Shown: positions 4,199 to 30,221 of the stretch, in pieces
Layout of the letters: each line of letters begins with the position of its first letter
Numbering within the stretch: position 1 is the first letter of the stretch
Source: Candidatus Uhrbacteria bacterium
Lineage (GTDB): Bacteria; Patescibacteriota; Patescibacteriia; UBA9934
Assembly: GCA_943358395.1 (NCBI GenBank)
Contig: CALRGY010000001.1
Span: 8,008 to 72,007 of the forward strand
Direction of reading: 5' to 3'
Length of the DNA stretch: 64,000 bases
Notes under the pieces: model-generated
The model's database searches: none
What the model was told of the DNA's origin: nothing
What the model saw: only the letters and a program-made list of their open reading frames with translations
Made by a program: the position numbers and the translations under genes

Positions 4199-4596
4199 TG
4201 CTATACTTTCCCTGTATGTCTCTTCGTCAATATGTGGTGATGCTTGCGCTGGGAACGGCGATTAGTATTTCGGCGTGGTGTATTGTGATGATTTCTATTG
4301 ATCCAAGCACGGCAGGCGTGTTTGCGTTCTTTGTGTTCTACCTTACGCTTGGGGCAGGTATTGCGGGGCTTTTCACCATTGGTGGCACAATGATTCGGGC
4401 AAGAAAGTATGCGGAAGAGGAGGTTCATGCTGCCGTGGCACGTTCTTTTCGCCAAGGGGTGATGTTGTCTCTGCTGTTTCTCACATGCCTGTTTTTGCTG
4501 TCCCGTAATCTGTTTTCCCTCGGTACCATGGTGCTGCTTATCGTATTAGTAGGACTGATTGAGTTTTTGATGATGAGTGTGAGGAGGGAAACGTGA
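4198..4596 (+). CDS. small hydrophobic membrane protein (hypothetical)
   Basis: 133 aa with 3-4 predicted TM segments; its ATG overlaps the upstream stop (TGATG). Confidence 0.4.
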   Translation: MLYFPCMSLRQYVVMLALGTAISISAWCIVMISIDPSTAGVFAFFVFYLTLGAGIAGLFTIGGTMIRARKYAEEEVHAAVARSFRQGVMLSLLFLTCLFLLSRNLFSLGTMVLLIVLVGLIEFLMMSVRRET

Positions 4597-21262: not shown

Positions 21263-23893
21263 ATGATCCCCAATAATTTCACCAGCAAATCTCAAGAAGC
21301 CATTCAAAATGCCCAAGCCTTCTCCGAGGAACACGGTCAGCACGGTATTGAACCCATTCATCTTTTAGCGGCGCTTACCCGTCAGGAAGGCGGGTTTGTG
21401 GTAACAATCTTTCAAAAAATGGCAACAAGTTTGCCGGCATTGCTGGGCGACGTTGACCGTATGTGTGATGCACTCCCCAAGCATGGCAACCCCGAACGTG
21501 GCGGCATTGGCCAGATTATCCTTACCCCTGCTCTTGCCGCCGTGCTCCAGGCCTCTGCAAAAGTCTCCAAACACTTCGGTGACGAATACATTTCAACAGA
21601 ACATCTTTTACTCGGACTTCTCGTCGACCGCCCCATTGCTGCCATGCTTGCAGAACACGCAGTAACAGAGGCTGCCATTCTTGCCGCACTCAAAGATCTT
21701 CGGGGCAGCCAACGCGTTGACTCTCAAGACCCAGAAACCAAATATCAAGCCATCGAAAAATACAGCATGAACCTTACGGAACGTGCTCGCCACGGCAAGC
21801 TCGACCCGGTGATCGGTCGCGATGAAGAAATTCGGCGCGTCATGCAAGTACTTTCCCGTCGTACGAAAAATAATCCAGTGCTTATTGGCGAAGCGGGCGT
21901 TGGAAAAACAGCGATTGTTGAAGGCTTGGCTATTCGCATTGTTGCCGGCGATGTACCGGAAACGCTCAAGAACAAAGAAGTTGTTTCGCTCGACTTAGGA
22001 TCGCTTATTGCGGGAACCAAATTCCGTGGCGAATTTGAAGAGCGACTCAAGGCGGTAATGCGTGAAGTTTCTCAGTCCGATGGCAAGTACATTCTTTTCA
22101 TCGACGAGCTTCATATGCTGGTTGGTGCCGGGAAAGGCGATGAATCGCCCATGGATGCAAGCAATTTGCTCAAACCCGCCCTTGCCCGGGGCGAGCTTCG
22201 GGTGATTGGCGCCACCACCACAAAGGAATATCAACGACATATTGAAAAAGACCAAGCGCTCGAACGTCGCTTTCAGCCCATTATGGTTGAAGAGCCTTCG
22301 GTTGACGACGCAATCGCCATCCTTCGCGGCATTAAAGAACGCTACGAAATTCATCACGGCGTACGCATTTCAGACAACGCTATTGTTGCCGCCGTTACCC
22401 TTTCTGCACGGTATATTCCCGACCGCCAGCTCCCCGATAAAGCTATTGATCTCATCGATGAAGCCGCCGCCGGACTTCGATTACAGATCGATTCCATGCC
22501 TGAAGAGCTCGATCGCATGAATCGCGAAGAAATGCGCCTACAGATTGAACGCCAAGCCCTACTCAAAGAAGATGATCGTGCATCGAAAGAACGCCTGAAA
22601 GAAATCGAGAAGCTCATTGCAGACAGCAAGGAGCAATCATCGGAATTGACATTGCGATGGACGAACGAAAAAAACCTTATTGCCGCAATTCGGGAAAGCA
22701 AAAGCGCCATCGATAAACTCATGAACGAAGCAGAATACGAAGAACGTCGTGGCAATCTGGAACGCGTTGCCGAAATTCGGTACAGCGAGCTTCCGCACCA
22801 ACGGGAAGCACTCCAAGCAAAAGAAGGCGAATTAAAGCAATTTCAAACAGAACGTGGCTTGCTCAAAGAAGTGATCGCCGAAGAAGATATTGCAAGCGTC
22901 GTGGGCAGATGGACGCATATTCCCGTCTCCAAAATGCTGGAAAGCGACATGGTAAAGCTCGCCCGTATGGAGGAAGAGTTGCAACAGCGTGTAGTGGGGC
23001 AACAAGAAGCCATCACCGCCGTCAGCAATGCGTTGCGCCGTTCACGAGCCGGATTGTCAGAGGAAAAACGTCCGATTGGTTCCTTCATGTTCCTAGGGCC
23101 AACGGGTGTGGGGAAAACCGAACTTGCCCGTGCGCTGGCAACGTTTATGTTTAACGACGAAAAGGCACTGATTCGCTTAGACATGAGCGAATACATGGAA
23201 AAGCACAGCGTAAGCAAAATGATCGGTTCCCCGCCGGGGTATGTGGGATACGAAGAAGGCGGGCAGCTCTCCGAAAAAATTCGAAAGCATCCGTACTCGG
23301 TCATACTCCTCGATGAGATCGAAAAGGCGCACCCAGACGTGTTTAACATGCTGCTGCAAATTTTAGACGACGGCAGGCTTACCGATTCCAAAGGTCGCAC
23401 CGTCAACTTCAAAAATACCATCGTTATCATGACGAGCAACATCGGTAGTGACATCATTCTGAACAGCGGGCGCCGTATTGGATTCATTGAAAGTGAAGGG
23501 GTCAAAACAGATGCCACCCGTGAAAAGGTGCTCGAAATGCTTCGCGATCACTTCCGCCCAGAATTCTTGAACCGCATCGATGAAACCATTGTGTTCCACG
23601 CACTCGATGCAGAGCATATTGCCGCAATCGTGCATCTTCAGCTTGCCCTTGTCACCAATCGTCTGAAAGAAGCGCGCAATATCGCTGTAACCTTTACGGC
23701 ACGGGCAAAGAAGTACATCGCCGAACATGGATACGACCCTCTGTACGGCGCTCGCCCGTTAAAGCGAATTATTCAATCAAAAGTCCTCGACCCCTTGGCA
23801 CTCGAAATCGTCAAAGGTACAATTGGCATAGATTCGGCTGTAACGGTTGATGTCAAAAAAGACGCCGTATTCTTCACCACCACAACCCCATGA
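21263..23893 (+). CDS. clpB: ATP-dependent chaperone ClpB
   Basis: N-domain, two AAA+ modules ([16 protein letters not shown]), a long middle coiled-coil and a C-terminal D2 small domain; start chosen at [14 protein letters not shown]. Confidence 0.92.
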
Positions 23894-24576
23894 CCACTTC
23901 GGCAAAACACATCTTCCTCCTTGATAGCATCGCGATCCTGATCTTTGGTGGGTATTTCGCTTTTCTCTCTGTGAGTCTTGCAACGATGCATCTTCATCCC
24001 GTCACCACGCTCATCGCTGCCCTTCTAGGCTACGTTCTCGCCGACCTTATCTCTGGACTTGTCCACTTTCTTGGCGACACCTTTGGCAGCAAGAATACCC
24101 CCATTGTTGGCGCAGCGTTTATTGAACCGTTTCGCTATCATCACATTGATCCCGAAGACATCACCAAACACGGATTCGTTGAAACCAATGGGCATAATTG
24201 TCTGGTCTCGATTCCGATCCTGATGATCATGACGCATATTCTTCTGAAATACGTTGCCACATCTGCACTTGCTGGGTTTGCCCTTGCCACATCATATTTC
24301 CTTGTGCTCGGCGTATTCCTCACCAACCAATTCCACAAATGGGCACACACCCCAACGCCACCACGATTCATTCAGTTCCTTCAGCACCATCGCATTATTC
24401 TCTCCCCCAACCATCACCGCATCCACCACACCTCCCCCTTCACCCGCTATTTCTGCATCACCACCGGCTGGCTGAACAGCCTCCTCGACTCCCTCAACTT
24501 CTTCCCCCTCACCAAATCCCTCCTCCGCAAAATCCCCTTCATGTTGAAACCCGCGGAGGAGTACGAGGCACGGTAA
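23890..24576 (+). CDS. CarF/TMEM189/FAD4-like membrane lipid desaturase family protein
   Basis: Four TM segments and His-boxes [20 protein letters not shown] and HHRIHH; the start overlaps the clpB stop (ATGA). Confidence 0.45.
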
Positions 24577-24588
24577 CTTCAAAAATCT

Positions 24589-25296
24589 ATGTCTCTTGCA
24601 GAAGAAGCGATCCTCTTCGCAAAGCACAACAAAAAAGAAATCTCCCGCCGGCTGACGAGTCTGGAAGAATACCCACCCAGCGATTCACCCGTCACCATAT
24701 TCATGGCCGGTTCGCCAGGGGCAGGAAAAACAGAGTATTCAAAAAGTTTACTCGCCTACCTCATAAAAAACACAAGTGATCGACCTATTCGTATTGATAG
24801 CGACGAGCTTCGCGGGGAAATTCCCGGATACACAGGGGAAAATTCATCGGAAATGCAGGGGGCTGTCTCCATTCTCCTGAGCGAAATGTACGACCGTGCA
24901 TTAAAGAACCGACAAACCGCTATTATCGACGGGACGTTATCACATTACGGAAAGGCTAAAGAGAACATCGAACGGTCTCTCAAGCGCAATCGGCAAGTGC
25001 TTATTTTCTACATCTACCAGCATCCAGAAGTCGCATGGCAGTTTACCGTTGCACGAGAGCACATTGAGGGACGAAACATTCCAAAACGTGCGTTTATTGA
25101 AAAATTTCTCGGCTCAAAAGCAACCGTCAATCAGATTTATCGGGAATTCAGCGACCGCATAACGCTCTTCTTGGCAAGAAAAAACTTCCAAACGCACGCC
25201 ATTGAAACAGTAGAAATCGTGAGTCCTCAACATTCGGGATTGGACGCATATCTCCCGGAAACATATACTGAAGAGGAATTAGCAAAATTACTATGA
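24589..25296 (+). CDS. zeta-toxin-like P-loop kinase (Zeta_toxin/AAA_33 family)
   Basis: Walker A GSPGAGKTE with following DxD-type motifs; length and architecture resemble zeta/PezT UNAG-kinase toxins. Confidence 0.4.
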   Translation: MSLAEEAILFAKHNKKEISRRLTSLEEYPPSDSPVTIFMAGSPGAGKTEYSKSLLAYLIKNTSDRPIRIDSDELRGEIPGYTGENSSEMQGAVSILLSEMYDRALKNRQTAIIDGTLSHYGKAKENIERSLKRNRQVLIFYIYQHPEVAWQFTVAREHIEGRNIPKRAFIEKFLGSKATVNQIYREFSDRITLFLARKNFQTHAIETVEIVSPQHSGLDAYLPETYTEEELAKLL

Positions 25297-25466: not shown

Positions 25467-25474
25467 TCTCAAAA

Positions 25475-25499
25475 ATCCCCAGGAAAACCTGGGGATTTT
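25475..25499 (+). terminator. rho-independent terminator
   Basis: atccccagg-aaaa-cctggggat hairpin followed by TTTT. Confidence 0.7.
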
Positions 25500-25557
25500 G
25501 TTATAGTCCAGAATTTTCTCTCAAAACCCATTTCTCCCACTTTTCCCCATACCCCAA

Positions 25558-25623
25558 TCGACAAAACCCCATTTTTATGCTAATATTAGCGGTTCCTCTA
25601 CCTGTACGGACACATTGTCCGTA
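25558..25623 (+). promoter_or_regulatory. sigma70-like promoter (TCGACA-N17-TGcTAATAT) plus downstream 8-bp-stem palindrome, copy A
   Basis: TCGACA 25558-63, extended -10 TGcTAATAT 25578-86, hairpin tacggaca-cat-tgtccgta 25605-23; duplicated at 27226-27287. Confidence 0.6.
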
Positions 25624-25657
25624 GGCAAGAACATCACAAAAAACACTGGAGGAGCGG

Positions 25658-27098
25658 ATGCCGCTCACCCTTTTCTGGCTCATTGCCAGTTTCTTCCTTG
25701 GGTGTTCGCAAGAACCCCAAACCATCGTGTACGTCATCGCGGGTGCCCCCCCCTTCTGCGGTTATTTCGCAGGAGGAAGGAGCATTTGCCGAGGACGCAC
25801 CGGTGGAAACTCTCACCGACGCCCCCGCTGCCTATGATGGCGGCAACGGAGACGCATGCGATCTCGACGGGATCGATCCCTATGATCCCGAAAAAGTCAT
25901 CGCTTACGAGATCGTGAATCTCACCGACGAGCAGATCGCAGAGCTCGAGAGCATTGGATACTCATGGTGGGATACCTATTCGCAAATCCCAGAAGCTACT
26001 GTCAATGTCGACATCAACATAACAGTGAGTGAATGCGAAACAGTTTCCTTCACCGATGTAAACCTCGAGATCGGGCGGGAAATGGGTTATGTCGCCCCCT
26101 CTGCCAGCGGAGAAACAAGCTGGCGAGTGGACTATAACGACAGTAATTCCGCTCAAAAAATCGGTGGGTACGACAACGCGAGATGGTGGGCAGAAATCTA
26201 CAGCGGTCCGGTAGCGGAACCGTTTCTGTACCAATACGCCATCAAGTACTTACCGGAAACGCGTGGTCGACGATCTGCGTGGATGACGCTCTCAACGAAT
26301 TATTGGCCTGCGAATTTCGCGGCTGCCTATAACGCGTTTGAACCGTACAGTGAAGACATGATGGATCGGGATTACGGGAAAAACGGGTGGATCTCCATGT
26401 ACGAAGGCGACCCCGCGTACATGACCTGCCAAGTCGGAACCTGCGACGACACGCGCCTCAATGCGTGTTTGACCAAAGTTTACGACATCGAAGCCCTGGA
26501 TGCATCCGATTCACTCGTCGCAGAAACCGGTGACTGCTTCGACTGGTCCAACATCGCAGCAACATACGCTTGGGAGGTCTACTTCAGCCACTGGGACGGA
26601 TTCATGAGTCCGCACAATGGCTACGTAGAAGAATTGGGAGATTCGGCTTCGCCGGACACATCTCGATTCAGCCTCCGAATCGCAGGCGTGGATCTGGTAA
26701 ACCCCAACTGGGTAAGTGTTGAGGAGGTCACGTTTTACTCGTGGTCGACTCTCTACCCACCCTGCTGGAAGGATCAGTCTGAAGGTGGTTGCAGAGCGAT
26801 GCTCGTCGCCGATCTGCAGATCCTAATCGAAGCAGGACGAAGCGGAAAGATGGCGAGTGACCTCGACAAGGTTGCTGCATCCCGCCAAGCCCTCGGGCTC
26901 TGGTGGGAAGGGGTCGACGAGGGCTGGTACAACGACGAACGGGACTGGCTCACCGCCAGACCCGATTACGTCGAAATGGCCCTCACCGATGCTCTCGACC
27001 CCTGCAACGACTGGACTGCCGCAGGGTACAACCCCTGGGACACCGGTCTTGCAGGAGAATGTGGGGACACCGGGTTCATCGATACCGGAAAACCGTAA
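25658..27098 (+). CDS. secreted, possibly lipid-anchored W/Y/D-rich protein, frameshifted at a C8 tract (phase-OFF or sequencing error)
   Basis: ATG 25658 encodes the signal peptide MPLTLFWLIASFFLGC in frame 2. The long ORF continues in frame 0 (25683..27098). Deleting one C from the C8 run at 25746-25753 joins them: ...AGAPPSAVISQEEGAFAED... Confidence 0.55.
25746..25753 (+). repeat. C8 homopolymer tract inside the coding region
   Basis: Eight consecutive C at the signal-peptide/mature-protein junction; the same C8 tract is found at 27329-27336 upstream of the paralogue. Confidence 0.9.
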
Positions 27099-27131
27099 AA
27101 GGCTCAAAAAAAGCGAGGTAGAACAACGAAG

Positions 27132-27170
27132 CCCCCGAGCTGCTATTACGCTGCAGCCCGGGGGTTTTCT
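27132..27170 (+). terminator. rho-independent terminator after lipoprotein gene 1
   Basis: cccccgagctgc...gcagcccggggg stem followed by TTTTCT. Confidence 0.65.
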
Positions 27171-27225
27171 ATTTCAACAACCCTTTCTCCAAACTCCCCC
27201 ATTTCTCTTTTCCACACCCCCCTCG

Positions 27226-27287
27226 TCGACAAAACCCCATTTTTATGCTAATATTAACGGTTCCTCTGCCTGTACGGATGTTCCGTA
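27226..27287 (+). promoter_or_regulatory. sigma70-like promoter plus hairpin, copy B
   Basis: TCGACA 27226-31, TGcTAATAT 27247-54, hairpin tacgga-tgt-tccgta 27273-87; near-identical to 25558-25623. Confidence 0.6.
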
Positions 27288-27328
27288 AACAGACATGAAG
27301 AACCCAACAATTCGTGTCCTCGCGTATG

Positions 27329-27336
27329 CCCCCCCC
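27329..27336 (+). repeat. C8 homopolymer tract in leader/uORF of lipoprotein gene 2
   Basis: Eight C inside a 19-codon uORF (MKNPTIRVLAYAPPFCISA, 27295-27354) that ends 33 nt before the main ATG. Confidence 0.85.
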
Positions 27337-27387
27337 TTCTGCATTTCAGCATGAGGACGGAGCATTTGCCGAGGACGTGGAGAAGTC

Positions 27388-28092
27388 ATGAAGATTTTGA
27401 TTTTTTTGTTTACGCTTCTGGTCGGTGCCTCCTGCACCAACAAGGGTGCCGTCGACCGCACCCCCGACACCGAAACCTTCGACACGGGGGTGGCAGCGTC
27501 TGCCACCCCCGACGACGATGGCGACGGCTACACCGACGACGAGGACTGTGACGACACCGACCCCGCCGTCAACCCGGGAGCCACCGAGATCTGCGACAAT
27601 GTCGACAACGATTGTAACAGCCTCATCGACGATGCCGATCCCGACCTCGATCTCAGTACCGGCACCACCTGGTACGCGGACACCGACCGTGATGGGTACG
27701 GCCAGGGCACCGACCGCCCCACAAGCACCACCACCGCCTGCGACCAACCCGGCGGCTATGTCGCCGACAACACCGACTGCTACGACAACGACCCAGGAAA
27801 TTTTCCCGGGGCTACGGAAGCTTGTGACGGCATCGACAATGACTGCGATGGGGTGGTGGACGAGGGTTTCACGTATTACTACGCCACCCTCGACGAGGAT
27901 GGCGATGGCTGGGGCGGCAACGCCGACGCCGCTTCCGGTTGCCCGGGAACAAAGCCCCCGGACTACTCGGAGAACGTCGGCGACTGCGACGACACCGACC
28001 CCACCGTCAACCCAGAGGCCACCGAGATCTGTAACAACATTGACGATGACTGCGACACCCTCATCGACGAGGAGGAGATCTGCGTGCCATAG
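27388..28092 (+). CDS. secreted, possibly lipid-anchored protein with three MopE-type putative metal-binding repeats
   Basis: Signal peptide MKILIFLFTLLVGASC; three repeats of DxDGDG(Y/W)...C(D/Y)D(T/N)DP.VNP.ATE(I/A)C(D/N).(V/I)D(N/D)DC(N/D).(L/V)(I/V)D(D/E), the Pfam Cu-binding_MopE-like motif. Confidence 0.7.
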   Translation: MKILIFLFTLLVGASCTNKGAVDRTPDTETFDTGVAASATPDDDGDGYTDDEDCDDTDPAVNPGATEICDNVDNDCNSLIDDADPDLDLSTGTTWYADTDRDGYGQGTDRPTSTTTACDQPGGYVADNTDCYDNDPGNFPGATEACDGIDNDCDGVVDEGFTYYYATLDEDGDGWGGNADAASGCPGTKPPDYSENVGDCDDTDPTVNPEATEICNNIDDDCDTLIDEEEICVP

Positions 28093-28117
28093 GAGGCGGT
28101 GCGCAGCAAAAACGAAA

Positions 28118-28160
28118 CCCCCGAGCTGCAATACGGCAAGCTCGGGGGTCTTCAGTTTTA
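28118..28160. terminator. hairpin terminator, possibly bidirectional (lipoprotein 2 / ppa)
   Basis: 9-bp stem cccccgagc...gctcggggg placed between convergent genes. Confidence 0.55.
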
Positions 28161-28166
28161 CGGACA

Positions 28167-28754
28167 TTAGTCTTTGATCTTGGGCAGAATCTCTTTTTGG
28201 TATCTCTCAATACACTCTTCGATCACATTCACTGCTTCGTCCGCGTCGTAGAAGCCGAGGACTTTGCAGGTGCCTGGCTTTTTCAGGTGTTTGTAGAATT
28301 CGAAGTAGTGTGCGGTTTCTTTTGCCCAGTGCTCGCCGAGGTCTGTATATGACGTGATGTGATCAGCGCGCTTGTCGTCGGAAAGCACGCAAATTACTTT
28401 GTCGTCGGTTTCTCCCCCGTCTTCAAATTTCATGATGCCGATGACGCGGACTTCCACGAGCGATCCTGGAATAAGTGGCTCGACAACATTCGCGACGAGA
28501 ATATCCAGCATGTCGTTATCCTGATCCCACGTTTGAGGGATTAAGCCGTACACCGTTGGATACGCTAACGAAGAATACCCCACGCGGTCGAGCTTCAAGT
28601 GACCCGTTTCCGTAATAAACTCGTATTTATTAATACTGCCAGCATTGATTTCCACCAATCCGTTCAACACACGCTTTTCCTTATCTGCCCATGGAGAGAG
28701 CAAGTGCAGCAAGTTCGGCATGAATTTGTGAATCGGCACATCAAGATTTGCCAT
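28167..28754 (-). CDS. ppa: inorganic pyrophosphatase (family I)
   Basis: YPTVYGLIPQTWDQDNDMLDILV and DDKVI blocks typical of soluble PPase. Confidence 0.85.
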   Translation of the reverse strand: MANLDVPIHKFMPNLLHLLSPWADKEKRVLNGLVEINAGSINKYEFITETGHLKLDRVGYSSLAYPTVYGLIPQTWDQDNDMLDILVANVVEPLIPGSLVEVRVIGIMKFEDGGETDDKVICVLSDDKRADHITSYTDLGEHWAKETAHYFEFYKHLKKPGTCKVLGFYDADEAVNVIEECIERYQKEILPKIKD

Positions 28755-28850
28755 AGTTTTCGAAAAAAGAATGAAGAATTCCTACCAGGAATGATGCGTC
28801 CCCAACTCTTTCGTGTCAACGAGGCAGTTTTTCGATATACTGGGAGGCAT

Positions 28851-30221
28851 ATGAAGCATCGCTATTCTTTGTTCATTCTTCCTGCTGTTCTTGCGGCATT
28901 CCTTCTTCCATCCTCATCCCTCGCCTTCGACCCCAACTACATCCTTTCCGACGAAGACCTGACCGATGCGCAATCGATGGATCTGAATCAGATCCAAGCT
29001 TTTCTGGAACGCGGAACATTGGCGACGTACCAAGCCCCAGACTGGGAAGGGAGAACACGCTATGCTGCAGAAATTATTTGGCGCACAGCGCAAGCACACA
29101 ACATCAATCCTCGATTCCTTTTAGTGCTCCTGCAAAAAGAACAAAGCCTTATTGAAGATGCAGACCCAACCCAGAAACAATATGACTGGGCGACGGGATA
29201 CGGTGTGTGTGACAGCTGCTCGATGAACGATGGAGCATTGGCGCGCTGGCAAGGATTTGGAAAACAAGTGAATTCTGCAGCGATGCAATTTACGGAAGGC
29301 TACATGGTGGACATCGAAAAAAACGGTGTGACCGCAGGGAAATACGGCCCAAACATTCCAGTGACCATCGACAAAACCACCGTTACTCCAGAAAACGCTG
29401 CCACTGCCGCAATGTACGCCTACACGCCGCACATTCACGGCAATAAAAACTTTGTCGCGATTTGGGACAAATGGTTTGGCAAAGAATATCCAAACGGAAC
29501 CCTTCTCCAAGCTGCGGGTGATGAAGGCGTTTGGCGCATTGAACAGGGGTATCGCCGCCCTATTACCAGCAAAGCTGCACTCACATCCCGCTATAACAGC
29601 GCATTCATCATTACCGTTTCAAAAACCACTCTTGAGCAATACCCCACCGGCACACCAATCTCGTTACCGAATTATTCCCTTGTGGAAGACGAAAACGGGA
29701 ATCGATATCTTTTAGTGGACGACGGCATGCGCCACATTGCAAGCCTGGAAGCATTTCGCAACATCGGCTTTTCTGAAGATGAACTCGTGGAAATTACCGC
29801 AGCCGAAGTTGCGGAATATGCCGTCGGAACCCCCATTACCATTGCAACACAAGACCCAACGGGAAAAGTCGTCAAACTCTCTACGAATGGCGCAATGTTT
29901 TACCTGAAAGACGGCATTCGCCAAGCTATTCTTGACGAAGCGGTGCTCACAGCGAACTTTCCAAATGCCACCGTGGAGAAAGCTCTGCCCGTGGAAATCG
30001 AACAATATCGCGAAGGTGCATTCCTCAAGCTTCCCGATGGAACCCTCGTTCGATCCATCGAAAACCCAACCGTGTACGTTGTTGCCGACGGGGAACGCCA
30101 CGCCATTCCCAGCGAATCGATATTTCTTGATTACGGCTACGAATGGCCAAACATCATCTTCGTTCAAGACGACGTGCTGAACCTCCATAAAGTCGGCACC
30201 GACCTTGGAACATCGGCATAG
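28851..30221 (+). CDS. secreted hypothetical protein
   Basis: Signal peptide MKHRYSLFILPAVLAAFLLPSSSLA; no recognisable domain; start taken at ATG 28851 with GGGAGG upstream, inside ORF 28599..30221. Confidence 0.5.
   Translation: MKHRYSLFILPAVLAAFLLPSSSLAFDPNYILSDEDLTDAQSMDLNQIQAFLERGTLATYQAPDWEGRTRYAAEIIWRTAQAHNINPRFLLVLLQKEQSLIEDADPTQKQYDWATGYGVCDSCSMNDGALARWQGFGKQVNSAAMQFTEGYMVDIEKNGVTAGKYGPNIPVTIDKTTVTPENAATAAMYAYTPHIHGNKNFVAIWDKWFGKEYPNGTLLQAAGDEGVWRIEQGYRRPITSKAALTSRYNSAFIITVSKTTLEQYPTGTPISLPNYSLVEDENGNRYLLVDDGMRHIASLEAFRNIGFSEDELVEITAAEVAEYAVGTPITIATQDPTGKVVKLSTNGAMFYLKDGIRQAILDEAVLTANFPNATVEKALPVEIEQYREGAFLKLPDGTLVRSIENPTVYVVADGERHAIPSESIFLDYGYEWPNIIFVQDDVLNLHKVGTDLGTSA

What the first reader, a model, noticed from the sequence alone, without database searches (positions are those of the whole stretch)
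25558..27098. Surface-protein gene interrupted by a C8 homopolymer exactly between its signal peptide and mature domain: candidate phase-variable gene
ATG 25658 opens a 59-codon frame encoding a classical signal peptide (MPLTLFWLIASFFLGC...). The 471-codon body is in the +1 frame and has no start codon of its own until about 26080. The two frames meet at a run of eight C (25746-25753). Removing one C gives a continuous 480-aa precursor (...VIAGAPPSAVISQEEGAFAED...). Homopolymer tracts at this position are the classical slipped-strand phase-variation switch for surface proteins in host-associated bacteria; alternatively it is a homopolymer sequencing error. The gene is driven by a near-consensus promoter (TCGACA-N17-TGcTAATAT) followed by an 8-bp-stem palindrome at +10 to +30.
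Basis: partly seen in the sequence, partly recalled or inferred. Interest (0 to 1): 0.7.

Follow-up and report, generated by a model that had tools for sequence, protein, structure and literature searches.

The report
Frameshifted lipoprotein gene at inherited C8 run
A surface lipoprotein gene of an uncultured ultrasmall bacterium really is split by a run of eight C's between its export signal and its body, but that run is a conserved piece of a reused promoter-leader hairpin and shows no length variation, so a phase-variation switch remains unproven.

Summary
C8 lies at 25746-25753. ATG 25658 has a strong Shine-Dalgarno sequence and opens a 59-codon lipoprotein signal-peptide frame. An intact 451-codon body follows in the +1 frame. 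Deleting one C gives a 479-aa precursor collinear with its homologues.

All six other members of this rare family carry an in-frame lipobox signal peptide. The body is a divergent CotH-kinase-like fold.

New finding: the C8 run is not a stand-alone switch. It is the 5' arm of a ~65-nt hairpin (H2) in a promoter-leader cassette. That cassette recurs, always with exactly C8, upstream of the next lipoprotein gene (27226-27387) and upstream of the orthologue in a sister species. In this gene H2 and the SD-ATG-signal-peptide block appear to have swapped order, so H2 is now read as the disordered linker.

An independent assembly reproduces C8, and no full-length "on" protein was found in the protein database searched. 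The body shows no decay, so the frameshift is young, reversible or compensated.

Verdict: a real frameshift at an inherited slippery run. Phase variation is possible but unsupported, and read-level data would decide. Interest is moderate to low.

The parts
25471..25500 (+). Terminator-like hairpin with a T-run closing the upstream zeta-toxin/57-aa operon. It marks gene 1 as its own transcription unit.
   Evidence: Sequence. The palindrome is conserved in L003 (match 4268-4299). The terminator scan did not list it.
25558..25586 (+). Sigma-70-type promoter TCGACA-N17-TAATAT with TG before the -10 hexamer. It is the first part of the repeated cassette.
   Evidence: The 31-mer is identical at 27226-27256 and the 19-mer CCATTTTTATGCTAATATT recurs in L003-L006.
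25601..25625 (+). Hairpin H1 near the predicted 5' end of the transcript (cctgtacggacacattgtccgtagg).
   Evidence: Fold. A homologous hairpin is present in locus 2 and L003 with a different loop and bulge.
25648..25654 (+). Shine-Dalgarno sequence GGAGGAG, ending 3 nt before ATG 25658.
   Evidence: Duplex energy with the anti-SD is -9.3 kcal/mol, against a background mean of -2.1; 3% of background windows reach -8.
25658..25837 (+). 59-codon ORF. Codons 1-16 form a lipoprotein signal peptide with lipobox FFLGC (Cys codon 25703-25705). After the C8 run the frame is out of register and ends at TGA 25835-25837.
   Evidence: All six other family members have an N-terminal lipobox signal peptide.
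25732..25797 (+). Hairpin H2 (copy U'), about 65 nt and 25 predicted pairs. It is homologous to the leader hairpin of locus 2 and of L003. Here it lies inside the CDS and, in the body frame, encodes the linker PPPSAVISQEEGAFAED.
   Evidence: covariance model 93 bits. AF2 residues 1-38 are disordered.
25746..25753 (+). The C8 run, lying in the 5' arm of H2. Five of the eight C's pair with G's of the purine-rich 3' arm. C7 or C10 would restore the frame.
25743..27098 (+). Body ORF: 451 codons from GTG 25743, the start of the protein in the public collection. It encodes a Cys-rich, CotH-kinase-like extracellular domain and is intact.
   Evidence: hhalign to a Pfam-CotH protein gives probability 99.2% and E 2e-19. 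Foldseek top hits are 5JDA/5JD9, E 6.6e-11. It has the fewest unique substitutions of the three close homologues.
27126..27170 (+). GC-rich terminator-like hairpin of gene 1. It resembles the one after gene 2 (around 28108-28132).
   Evidence: palindrome 27126-27170; repeats D7, D8, I1.
27226..27387 (+). Second full copy of the cassette. It holds the promoter (27226-27254), H1 (about 27269-27293), and H2 (27315-27377) with its own C8 (27329-27336). All of it lies upstream of the SD and ATG of gene 2.
   Evidence: 87.5 bits. It is 91.8% identical to the L003 leader.
27388..28092 (+). Gene 2, a MopE-motif lipoprotein (MKILIFLFTLLVGASC...) driven by the duplicated cassette. It is absent from the syntenic locus of the sister species.
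   Evidence: Pfam PF11617, E 1.6e-28. Synteny. No close homologue was found.

Best explanation
Gene 1 encodes a membrane-anchored lipoprotein whose body is a divergent CotH-like (atypical kinase fold) extracellular domain. It is transcribed from a strong promoter and translated from ATG 25658.

As it stands in the DNA it is frameshifted. The signal-peptide frame runs into a C8 tract and stops 28 codons after it. The intact body lies in the +1 frame.

The C8 tract is not a dedicated switch. It is the C-rich 5' arm of hairpin H2, a conserved part of a promoter-H1-H2 leader cassette. This lineage places that cassette in front of lipoprotein genes. Every other known copy has exactly C8 and lies upstream of the start codon.

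In gene 1 the H2 block and the SD-ATG-signal-peptide block appear to have swapped order. One route would be tandem duplication followed by reciprocal loss. H2 has therefore been taken into the coding sequence as the disordered linker after the lipobox.

I consider the present state most likely a genuine, evolutionarily young DNA-level 'off' allele. It would come from a one-base length change (functional C7 or C10 to C8) at this slippage-prone run. It is reversible in principle, but nothing here shows that it toggles at high frequency.

Shown: the frameshift, the signal peptide, the homology, the cassette and hairpin, the C8 invariance across assemblies, and the intact body. Inferred: the swap mechanism, the youth of the allele, and slippage as its cause.
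For: - Frames and the C7 rescue.
- An in-frame lipobox signal peptide in all 6 other family members.
- SD strength: -9.3 kcal/mol at ATG 25658 against -1.9 at GTG 25743.
- An independent Logan contig, listed for two samples, matches exactly and carries C8.
- Cassette duplication and the orthologous leader with C8.
- Synteny with the sister species.
- H2 folds the same way in all three versions, with z-scores of -3.6 to -4.4 for the H2-centred segments and 25 predicted pairs.
- The body is not decaying. It has no stops and all 10 conserved Cys. It has 24 unique substitutions against 47 and 67 for the other two homologues.
- Under neutral drift the chance of staying stop-free is 0.27 at 2% substitutions, 0.04 at 5% and 0.0025 at 10%. 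By comparison, U' differs from the other H2 copies by 11-13% and the flanks differ between species by 9-16.5%.
- The H2-encoded segment is disordered in the model, as a linker would be.
Against: - Only consensus assemblies were available, so minority C7 or C10 reads cannot be seen or excluded.
- C8 is the length of the tract in every other copy. The simplest history is that U' always had C8, which fits constitutive recoding or an out-of-frame junction better than a C7-to-C8 slip.
- The age of the rearrangement is inferred from U' divergence. A recent copy from an unseen diverged cassette elsewhere in the genome would make the whole event recent and the gene simply a new pseudogene.
- Only three distinct cassette copies are known, with one compensatory pair in H2. 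Selection on H2 as an RNA structure is therefore weakly supported.
Confidence: 0.45

Rival explanations
1. A bona fide contingency locus. The C8 tract changes length at high frequency by slipped-strand mispairing during replication. This would switch the lipoprotein on (C7 or C10) and off (C8 or C9) within the population, as an adaptive way to vary the cell surface.
For: - The tract is at the classical position, the 5' CDS just after the signal peptide, and a change of -1 or +2 restores a full precursor.
- The body is intact and constrained, as expected if the gene is regularly on.
- The CDS is a fast-evolving surface protein: 64% nt identity against 83.5-91% for the flanks.
Against: - No length polymorphism is seen in any assembly. 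C8 occurs three times in two species and in four or more samples.
- No 'on' protein was found in the database.
- Homopolymer tracts are not enriched, and the only two C8 runs belong to one repeated element.
- The tract is inherited from a non-coding hairpin.
- The library search for the two phrases returned four papers. The one I read concerns a tripeptide-repeat locus, not a homopolymer switch.
Confidence: 0.2
2. Constitutive recoding. The DNA is always C8 and the full-length protein is made in one of two ways. Either ribosomes slip +1 with tRNA-Pro on CCC_CCC_C, or RNA polymerase slips on the C run and makes some C7 transcripts.
For: - The required shift is +1, and CC[C/U]-[C/U] is the classic +1-slippery motif for tRNA-Pro. 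It gives about 1% frameshifting at AUG-CCC-C in E. coli, against less than 0.003% for typical non-programmed events (PMC4519876).
- Compensatory frameshifting and transcriptional slippage at homopolymers are documented, for example in endosymbionts (PMC5009743).
- C8 is the ancestral length of the element and the body is constrained.
- U' keeps the H2 pairing through pair-preserving changes.
Against: - There is no slow A-site codon: TTC is 42% of Phe codons and CCC is 19% of Pro codons.
- The only SD-like stretch just upstream of the run is a weak GCGGGUG, as read from the sequence.
- The run lies inside the 5' arm of H2, so H2 cannot act as a downstream stimulator.
- The frameshift is not conserved. 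The homologues are in frame and the two close ones have no C run in their 5' CDS.
- Documented bacterial transcriptional slippage involves runs of about 9 A's or T's (PMC5009743). I know of no case at C8.
Confidence: 0.15
3. Sequencing or assembly artefact. The organism really has C7 and the gene is simply intact.
For: Homopolymers are typical sites of consensus errors, and one base fewer gives a perfect gene.
Against: - The same C8 appears in a separately built Logan contig listed for two samples, and the public MAG encodes the identical 451-aa body.
- The paralogous and orthologous copies of the element also have C8, so C8 is the native length of this sequence.
- Locus 1 shares no stretch longer than 19 nt with locus 2 inside H2, so a k=31 repeat collapse is not possible there.
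Confidence: 0.08
4. An old, fixed pseudogene, or a signal-peptide-less cytoplasmic protein made from GTG 25743 as in the public gene call.
For: - The public collection holds the 451-aa protein that starts at GTG 25743.
- A rearranged 5' end could have been out of frame from the start.
Against: - The body shows no decay and has the shortest terminal branch of the family.
- GTG 25743 has no SD (-1.9 kcal/mol) and lies inside the H2 stem.
- Every homologue is a lipoprotein, and the domain has 10 conserved Cys, typical of an extracytoplasmic protein.
Confidence: 0.1

Closest known systems
Slipped-strand-mispairing phase variation at poly-G/C tracts in 5' coding regions of surface-protein genes (Neisseria, Campylobacter, Helicobacter, Bordetella; e.g. 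PMC5084427, PMC8355987, PMC1891110)
   Same: A run of 8 C's early in the CDS of a surface lipoprotein. A -1 or +2 change restores a full-length precursor, and the rest of the gene is intact.
   Different: - No tract-length variation is seen between copies, species or samples.
- The tract is part of a conserved RNA hairpin inherited from a 5' leader.
- The window shows no genome-wide enrichment of such tracts.
- The organism is a CPR/Patescibacteria-like bacterium, and I found no published homopolymer switch for that group.
Variable surface lipoprotein families of Mycoplasma (vlp, vsp, vsa) with a conserved promoter, 5' UTR and signal-peptide cassette in front of divergent lipoprotein bodies (from my own knowledge; not checked in papers here)
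   Same: A nearly identical promoter plus leader is reused in front of unrelated, fast-evolving lipoprotein genes lying in tandem.
   Different: - There are only two tandem genes.
- There is no poly-A promoter spacer tract.
- No invertible segment or recombinase was found among the 17 neighbouring proteins scanned, which are mostly housekeeping.
- The signal peptides are not shared.
+1 ribosomal frameshifting by tRNA-Pro at CCC-C (E. coli CCC-C errors, Listeria phage PSA CCC_UGA; PMC4519876, PMC5009743)
   Same: The shift needed is +1. The site, CCC_CCC_C, lets tRNA-Pro re-pair perfectly in the +1 frame. The product would equal the C7 protein.
   Different: No stop or rare codon follows the site, no clear SD-like stimulator precedes it, and the frameshift is not conserved in homologues.
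Corrective transcriptional slippage at homopolymers in reduced genomes (Buchnera and Blochmannia poly-A runs; PMC5009743)
   Same: A small-genome symbiont-like bacterium with a frameshifted but otherwise conserved envelope gene carrying a homopolymer at the frameshift.
   Different: The run is C8, not A10 or longer. C/G runs of this length are not known to slip efficiently during transcription.
CotH atypical protein kinase family (Pfam PF08757; B. cereus CotH 5JDA/5JD9; PMC7821199)
   Same: The fold matches (Foldseek E 6.6e-11, TM 0.55/0.67). Profile homology to a Pfam-CotH protein is strong (99.2%). The family invariantly keeps W-D-G, an N six residues later, and D-L. I did not map these onto the CotH catalytic residues.
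   Different: - No direct Pfam hit for the window protein or its two closest homologues.
- About 12% sequence identity to CotH.
- It is lipoprotein-anchored, Cys-rich and has a DTG-rich tail.
- The family is very rare: 7 representatives in 1.8e9 proteins.

Membership tests
SSR-mediated phase-variable (contingency) gene | Homopolymer of at least 7-8 nt inside the CDS or promoter | tested here: met
   C8 at 25746-25753, 30 codons into the ORF.
SSR-mediated phase-variable (contingency) gene | A change of one repeat unit toggles between a truncated and a full-length product | tested here: met
   C7 gives a 479-aa precursor collinear with the homologues. C8 and C9 both truncate.
SSR-mediated phase-variable (contingency) gene | Tract length differs between cells, strains, samples or related copies | tested here: inconclusive
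   Every consensus sequence has C8: the window twice, the Logan contig listed for 2 samples, and 4 sister-species assemblies. No 'on' protein is in the database. Read-level heterogeneity could not be examined.
SSR-mediated phase-variable (contingency) gene | The genome carries an excess of such tracts in surface or modification genes | tested here: not met
   Over 64 kb there are two C8 runs against 0.95 expected, and the C7 pattern matches 6 times against 3.7 expected. Neither is significant, and both C8 runs are in the same repeated element.
Programmed +1 ribosomal frameshift | A slippery P-site codon that allows re-pairing in the +1 frame | tested here: met
   CCC_CCC_C, and the direction needed is +1 (PMC4519876).
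Programmed +1 ribosomal frameshift | Stimulators: a slow or stop codon in the A site, an upstream SD-like element, or a downstream structure | tested here: not met
   The A-site codon TTC is common (42% of Phe). The slip site lies inside the 5' arm of H2, not upstream of it. Only a weak GCGGGUG lies just upstream of the run (sequence).
Programmed +1 ribosomal frameshift | The frameshift is conserved in orthologues | tested here: not met
   The orthologue P0003 and the five other full-length homologues are single in-frame ORFs. The DNA read for L003 and L002 shows no C run in the 5' CDS.
Bacterial lipoprotein (signal peptidase II substrate) | N-terminal hydrophobic signal peptide ending in a lipobox with an invariant Cys | tested here: met
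   MPLTLFWLIASFFLGC fits the PROSITE PS51257 pattern (pattern recalled from memory). The lipobox Cys is present in all six other members. No dedicated predictor was available.
CotH kinase family (PF08757) | A match to the Pfam model at its gathering score | tested here: not met
   No Pfam hit for P0001, P0002 or P0003, even at E up to 1.
CotH kinase family (PF08757) | Remote homology and a shared fold with solved CotH | tested here: met
   hhalign of the family profile against a Pfam-CotH protein gives probability 99.2% and E 2e-19 over 293 columns. The AF2 model (pLDDT 69.6, pTM 0.75) has 5JDA/5JD9 as its top Foldseek hits, E 6.6e-11.
Known cis-regulatory RNA (Rfam) | A match of the leader or H2 to any Rfam covariance model | tested here: not met
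   Nothing reached the gathering score. The best matches, at E of 0.03 or above, lie on terminator hairpins outside the leader.

The most novel reading that the evidence does not exclude
The promoter-H1-H2 unit may be a lineage-specific expression and regulatory cassette for surface lipoproteins in an Uhrbacteria-like Patescibacteria genus. In gene 1 its C-rich hairpin arm would then have been co-opted into the coding sequence. There it could act as a true slippage or recoding site between signal peptide and mature domain. That would be the first homopolymer on/off or recoding switch described in the CPR, controlling a secreted CotH-like kinase.
Probability: 0.12. Interest if true: 0.6.

Novelty: new member of a known kind. 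Interest (0 to 1): 0.35.

Why it matters
If the tract really toggles or is recoded, episymbiotic CPR bacteria would be shown to vary or tune a surface enzyme by the same simple-repeat logic as classical pathogens. The locus would also give a testable case of a 5'-leader hairpin being taken into a coding sequence as a linker.

As it stands, the practical value is more modest:
- The public gene call (GTG 25743, no signal peptide) is probably wrong.
- The gene is a frameshifted lipoprotein.
- Its body belongs to a very rare, divergent CotH-like family.
- A conserved promoter-leader cassette is reused in front of unrelated lipoprotein genes.

Tried and rejected
1. Looking for more copies of the cassette.
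   - The genome-contig scan with GGAGCATTTGCCGAGGAC gave 17 hits, about the number I expected by chance. None carries the C8 block or the promoter.
   - The metagenome-contig scan with the promoter 21-mer gave 0 hits. The scan with a C-run...GGAGCATTTGCC pattern gave 2 unrelated hits.
   - Viral-contig scans gave 0 hits, or only 15-mer matches lacking the 3'-arm motif.
   - blastn-short and a covariance model of H2 over the window and relatives' loci found no further copy.

2. Reaching more relatives by synteny. Homologues of the zeta-toxin neighbour at 60-65% identity lie in different contexts and have no cassette.

3. Homologues of gene 2. None is close, so they add no leaders.

4. Rfam. There is no family for H1 or H2.

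5. The uORF reading of H2 (ATG-C8..., MPPPSA...). I set this aside as unsupported. Its ATG has no SD (-1.9 kcal/mol) and lies in the stem.

6. Origin of the rearrangement.
   - An 84-nt tandem duplication inside locus 1 is only weakly supported (17 of 500 shuffles reach the score).
   - Nucleotide-level homology between the signal-peptide blocks is not significant.
   - Two alignments of the 5' end are both possible: the locus 1 ATG aligned to the ATG inside H2, or to the main ATG. This is not resolved.

7. The first AF2 model, from 3 sequences, was useless (pLDDT 35).

8. PDB sequence search with the family profile found nothing.

9. Run accession ERR3719152 is not mentioned in the paper library.
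Full report
**1. The observation**

The window has a run of eight C's at 25746-25753. ATG 25658 opens a 59-codon frame, MPLTLFWLIASFFLGCSQEPQTIVYVIAGAPPFCG..., which ends at TGA 25835-25837. A long frame, +1 relative to it, is open from 25683 to 27098.

Deleting one C joins the two into a 479-aa protein. Adding one C gives a third frame that stops after 86 codons. The promoter TCGACA-N17-TAATAT, with TG before the second hexamer, is at 25558-25586, and a hairpin follows at about 25601-25625.

Two details need correcting. First, the body frame does contain in-frame TTG (25683) and GTG (25743) codons. Second, the 451-aa protein P0001 in the public collection (NCBI, ENA, Logan) starts at GTG 25743.

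**2. What the gene is**

A word-indexed search of 5.8e9 protein clusters found only P0001 and two homologues, at 58% and 53% identity. An exhaustive HMM search of 1.8e9 representatives found seven proteins in all. One of those seven, P0252, is a bona fide CotH protein and not a family member.

Every full-length family member other than the window's begins with a short hydrophobic signal peptide ending in a lipobox Cys, in frame with the body. The window's C7 product aligns with them from Met1.

- ATG 25658 has GGAGGAG ending 3 nt upstream. The duplex energy with the anti-SD is -9.3 kcal/mol, in the top 3% of background.
- GTG 25743 has none (-1.9 kcal/mol).

ATG 25658 is therefore the real start, and the gene as assembled is frameshifted.

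Pfam and NCBIfam give nothing for the body. Other evidence places it near CotH:

- The family profile matches P0252 (Pfam CotH 1e-36, with a lamin-tail domain) with hhalign probability 99.2% and E 2e-19.
- An AF2 model built on seven sequences (pLDDT 69.6, pTM 0.75) has B. cereus CotH kinase 5JDA/5JD9 as its only strong PDB matches, at E 6.6e-11 and TM 0.55/0.67.

It is a lipoprotein-anchored, Cys-rich, CotH-like extracellular protein. Its first 38 residues are disordered in the model.

**3. The surroundings change the picture**

The 31-nt promoter block recurs exactly at 27226-27256, and a second C8 lies at 27329-27336. Alignment shows that the whole unit is duplicated in front of the next gene, 27388-28092, a MopE-motif lipoprotein. 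The unit consists of the promoter, the 5' hairpin H1, a spacer, and a ~65-nt block GTCCTCGCGTATG-C8-TTCTGC...GGAGCATTTGCCGAGGAC. The two genes also have similar terminators.

The orthologous gene in a sister species lies in the same neighbourhood: ClpB, lipid desaturase, zeta-toxin-like kinase, a 60-aa ORF, X, then inorganic pyrophosphatase on the opposite strand. Its flanks are 83.5-91% identical at the nucleotide level, but the X coding sequence is only 64% identical.

That orthologue carries the same unit, including exactly C8, entirely upstream of its SD and start codon. The unit is 100% identical in four sample assemblies and 91.8% identical to the window's second copy.

The ~65-nt block folds into one long hairpin, H2, in all three versions. 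Folding z-scores for the H2-centred segments are -3.6 to -4.4. The consensus structure has 25 pairs. Five of the eight C's pair with G's of a purine-rich 3' arm, and most substitutions fall in the loop or preserve pairing, with one compensatory pair.

Rfam has no matching family. An ATG immediately precedes the C8 in the two leader copies. It has no SD and lies in the stem, so I treat H2 as RNA structure and not as a translated uORF.

**4. Anatomy of locus 1**

Compared with the other copies, locus 1 keeps the promoter and H1. Its H2 copy, U' (25732-25797), differs from the other copies by 11-13%. It lies after the signal-peptide block instead of before the SD.

In the body frame, U' encodes PPPSAVISQEEGAFAED. 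This is an acidic stretch like the linkers of other family members, and it is disordered in the model. The H2 block and the SD-ATG-signal-peptide block have thus exchanged order, and the leader hairpin has become linker-coding sequence.

I could not resolve how this happened. An internal 84-nt duplication is only weakly supported, and two alignments of the 5' end are both possible.

Two consequences follow. The C8 run was inherited with the hairpin and did not evolve at this junction as a switch. Its position next to the frame change could also reflect the rearrangement junction itself.

**5. Is the frameshift real, and how old is it?**

A separately built Logan contig (L001), listed for two samples, matches window 25559-27255 exactly, with C8. 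Inside H2 the two window copies share no stretch longer than 19 nt, so repeat collapse is excluded. C8 is also the native length of the element elsewhere. An artefact is therefore unlikely.

The body is fully intact. It has no stops in 451 codons, keeps all 10 conserved Cys, and has the fewest lineage-specific substitutions of the three close homologues: 24 against 47 and 67.

A neutral-drift simulation gives a probability of remaining stop-free of 0.27 at 2% substitutions, 0.04 at 5% and 0.0025 at 10%. U' and the genome flanks have diverged by about 9-16.5%. Either the frameshift is much younger than the rearrangement, or it is reversed or compensated often enough for selection to keep acting on the body.

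**6. Mechanism**

I consider three readings.

*A young DNA-level 'off' allele.* This is my preferred reading: a one-base slip in an inherited slippage-prone run, reversible in principle (confidence 0.45).

*A genuine high-frequency switch.* This remains possible (0.2), but it has no positive evidence.
- All consensus sequences show C8.
- No 'on' protein was found in the database.
- Tracts are not enriched in the window.
- I found no homopolymer switch described for CPR bacteria. The phrase search returned four papers, and the one I read concerns a repeat locus of a different kind.

*Constitutive recoding.* This is the most interesting rival (0.15).
- The needed shift is +1, and CCC_CCC_C is the textbook +1-slippery context for tRNA-Pro (PMC4519876).
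- Corrective slippage is known in reduced genomes (PMC5009743).
- Against it, the usual stimulators are absent and the shift is not conserved.

Artefact (0.08) and old pseudogene or signal-peptide-less protein (0.1) are less likely.

**7. Organism and context**

The named best matches of the neighbouring zeta-toxin-like protein are Candidatus Uhrbacteria and other Patescibacteria. One relative's contig comes from a groundwater metagenome. The surrounding genes are housekeeping (SerRS, alanine racemase, GluRS, ClpB, Def, Fmt; PriA by synteny with L003), with no recombinase among those scanned.

**8. Verdict**

- The finding is a new member of a known kind, a homopolymer frameshift in a surface-protein gene. 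Its added twist is the origin of the tract in a reused leader hairpin.
- Read-level tract counts would settle the question.

Noticed in passing
window 27388-28092: Gene 2 is a 234-aa lipoprotein with three MopE-type putative metal-binding motifs (PF11617). It has no close homologue anywhere; the best is 47%, and the named hits are mostly from Myxococcota and Alphaproteobacteria MAGs. It is absent from the syntenic locus of the sister species. It looks like an acquired CDS placed under a copy of the local promoter-leader, with a similar terminator.
   Followed up: partly
window 27122-27146 and 28108-28132: The terminator regions after gene 1 and gene 2 share a similar sequence (AACAACGAAGCCCCCGAGCTGCTAT and AAAAACGAAACCCCCGAGCTGCAAT). 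Both ends of the expression unit are therefore reused, not only the promoter.
   Followed up: no
L003 4387-4485: In the sister species an upstream ATG (4387) is in frame with the main start, and by my manual translation of the sequence the frame stays open right through hairpin H2. The same frame has a stop in the window's second copy, so this is probably accidental.
   Followed up: partly
window 23890-24576: A CarF-like lipid desaturase lies directly after clpB in what looks like a Patescibacteria genome (NCBIfam plasmanylethanolamine desaturase model, E 2.9e-63 but below its cutoff; Pfam Lipid_desat 1.8e-52). It is conserved in the sister species.
   Followed up: no
window 24589-25296: The collection's NCBI/ENA entry for the zeta-toxin-like kinase is 197 aa (P0006). 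The full 235-aa ORF is the form conserved in relatives. This is a second likely start-site miscall in this record.
   Followed up: no
window 28599-30221: This 540-codon ORF overlaps the start of the opposite-strand pyrophosphatase gene (28167-28754). The sister-species orthologue is 456 aa, so the true start is probably about 250 nt further downstream. It has no Pfam family.
   Followed up: no
L029 6961-8363 (Ca. Uhrbacteria GCA_016209325.1): A reverse transcriptase (RVT_1) and a bAvd accessory gene lie immediately after the zeta-toxin-like gene. The pair suggests a diversity-generating retroelement, a different route to surface variation in a relative.
   Followed up: no
C-termini of P0001-P0003 and P0248-P0251: All members of the CotH-like lipoprotein family end in low-complexity tails rich in the tripeptide D-T-G (WDTGG...DTG...DTG). 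Their function is unknown.
   Followed up: no
L002 2720-2840: The 58%-identical homologue has a promoter of similar layout (TTGACAAAAGCTCCATTTTTTGATATTTT) followed by a GC-rich hairpin. It has no H2 and no C8. H2 is therefore specific to the window species and its sister species.
   Followed up: partly
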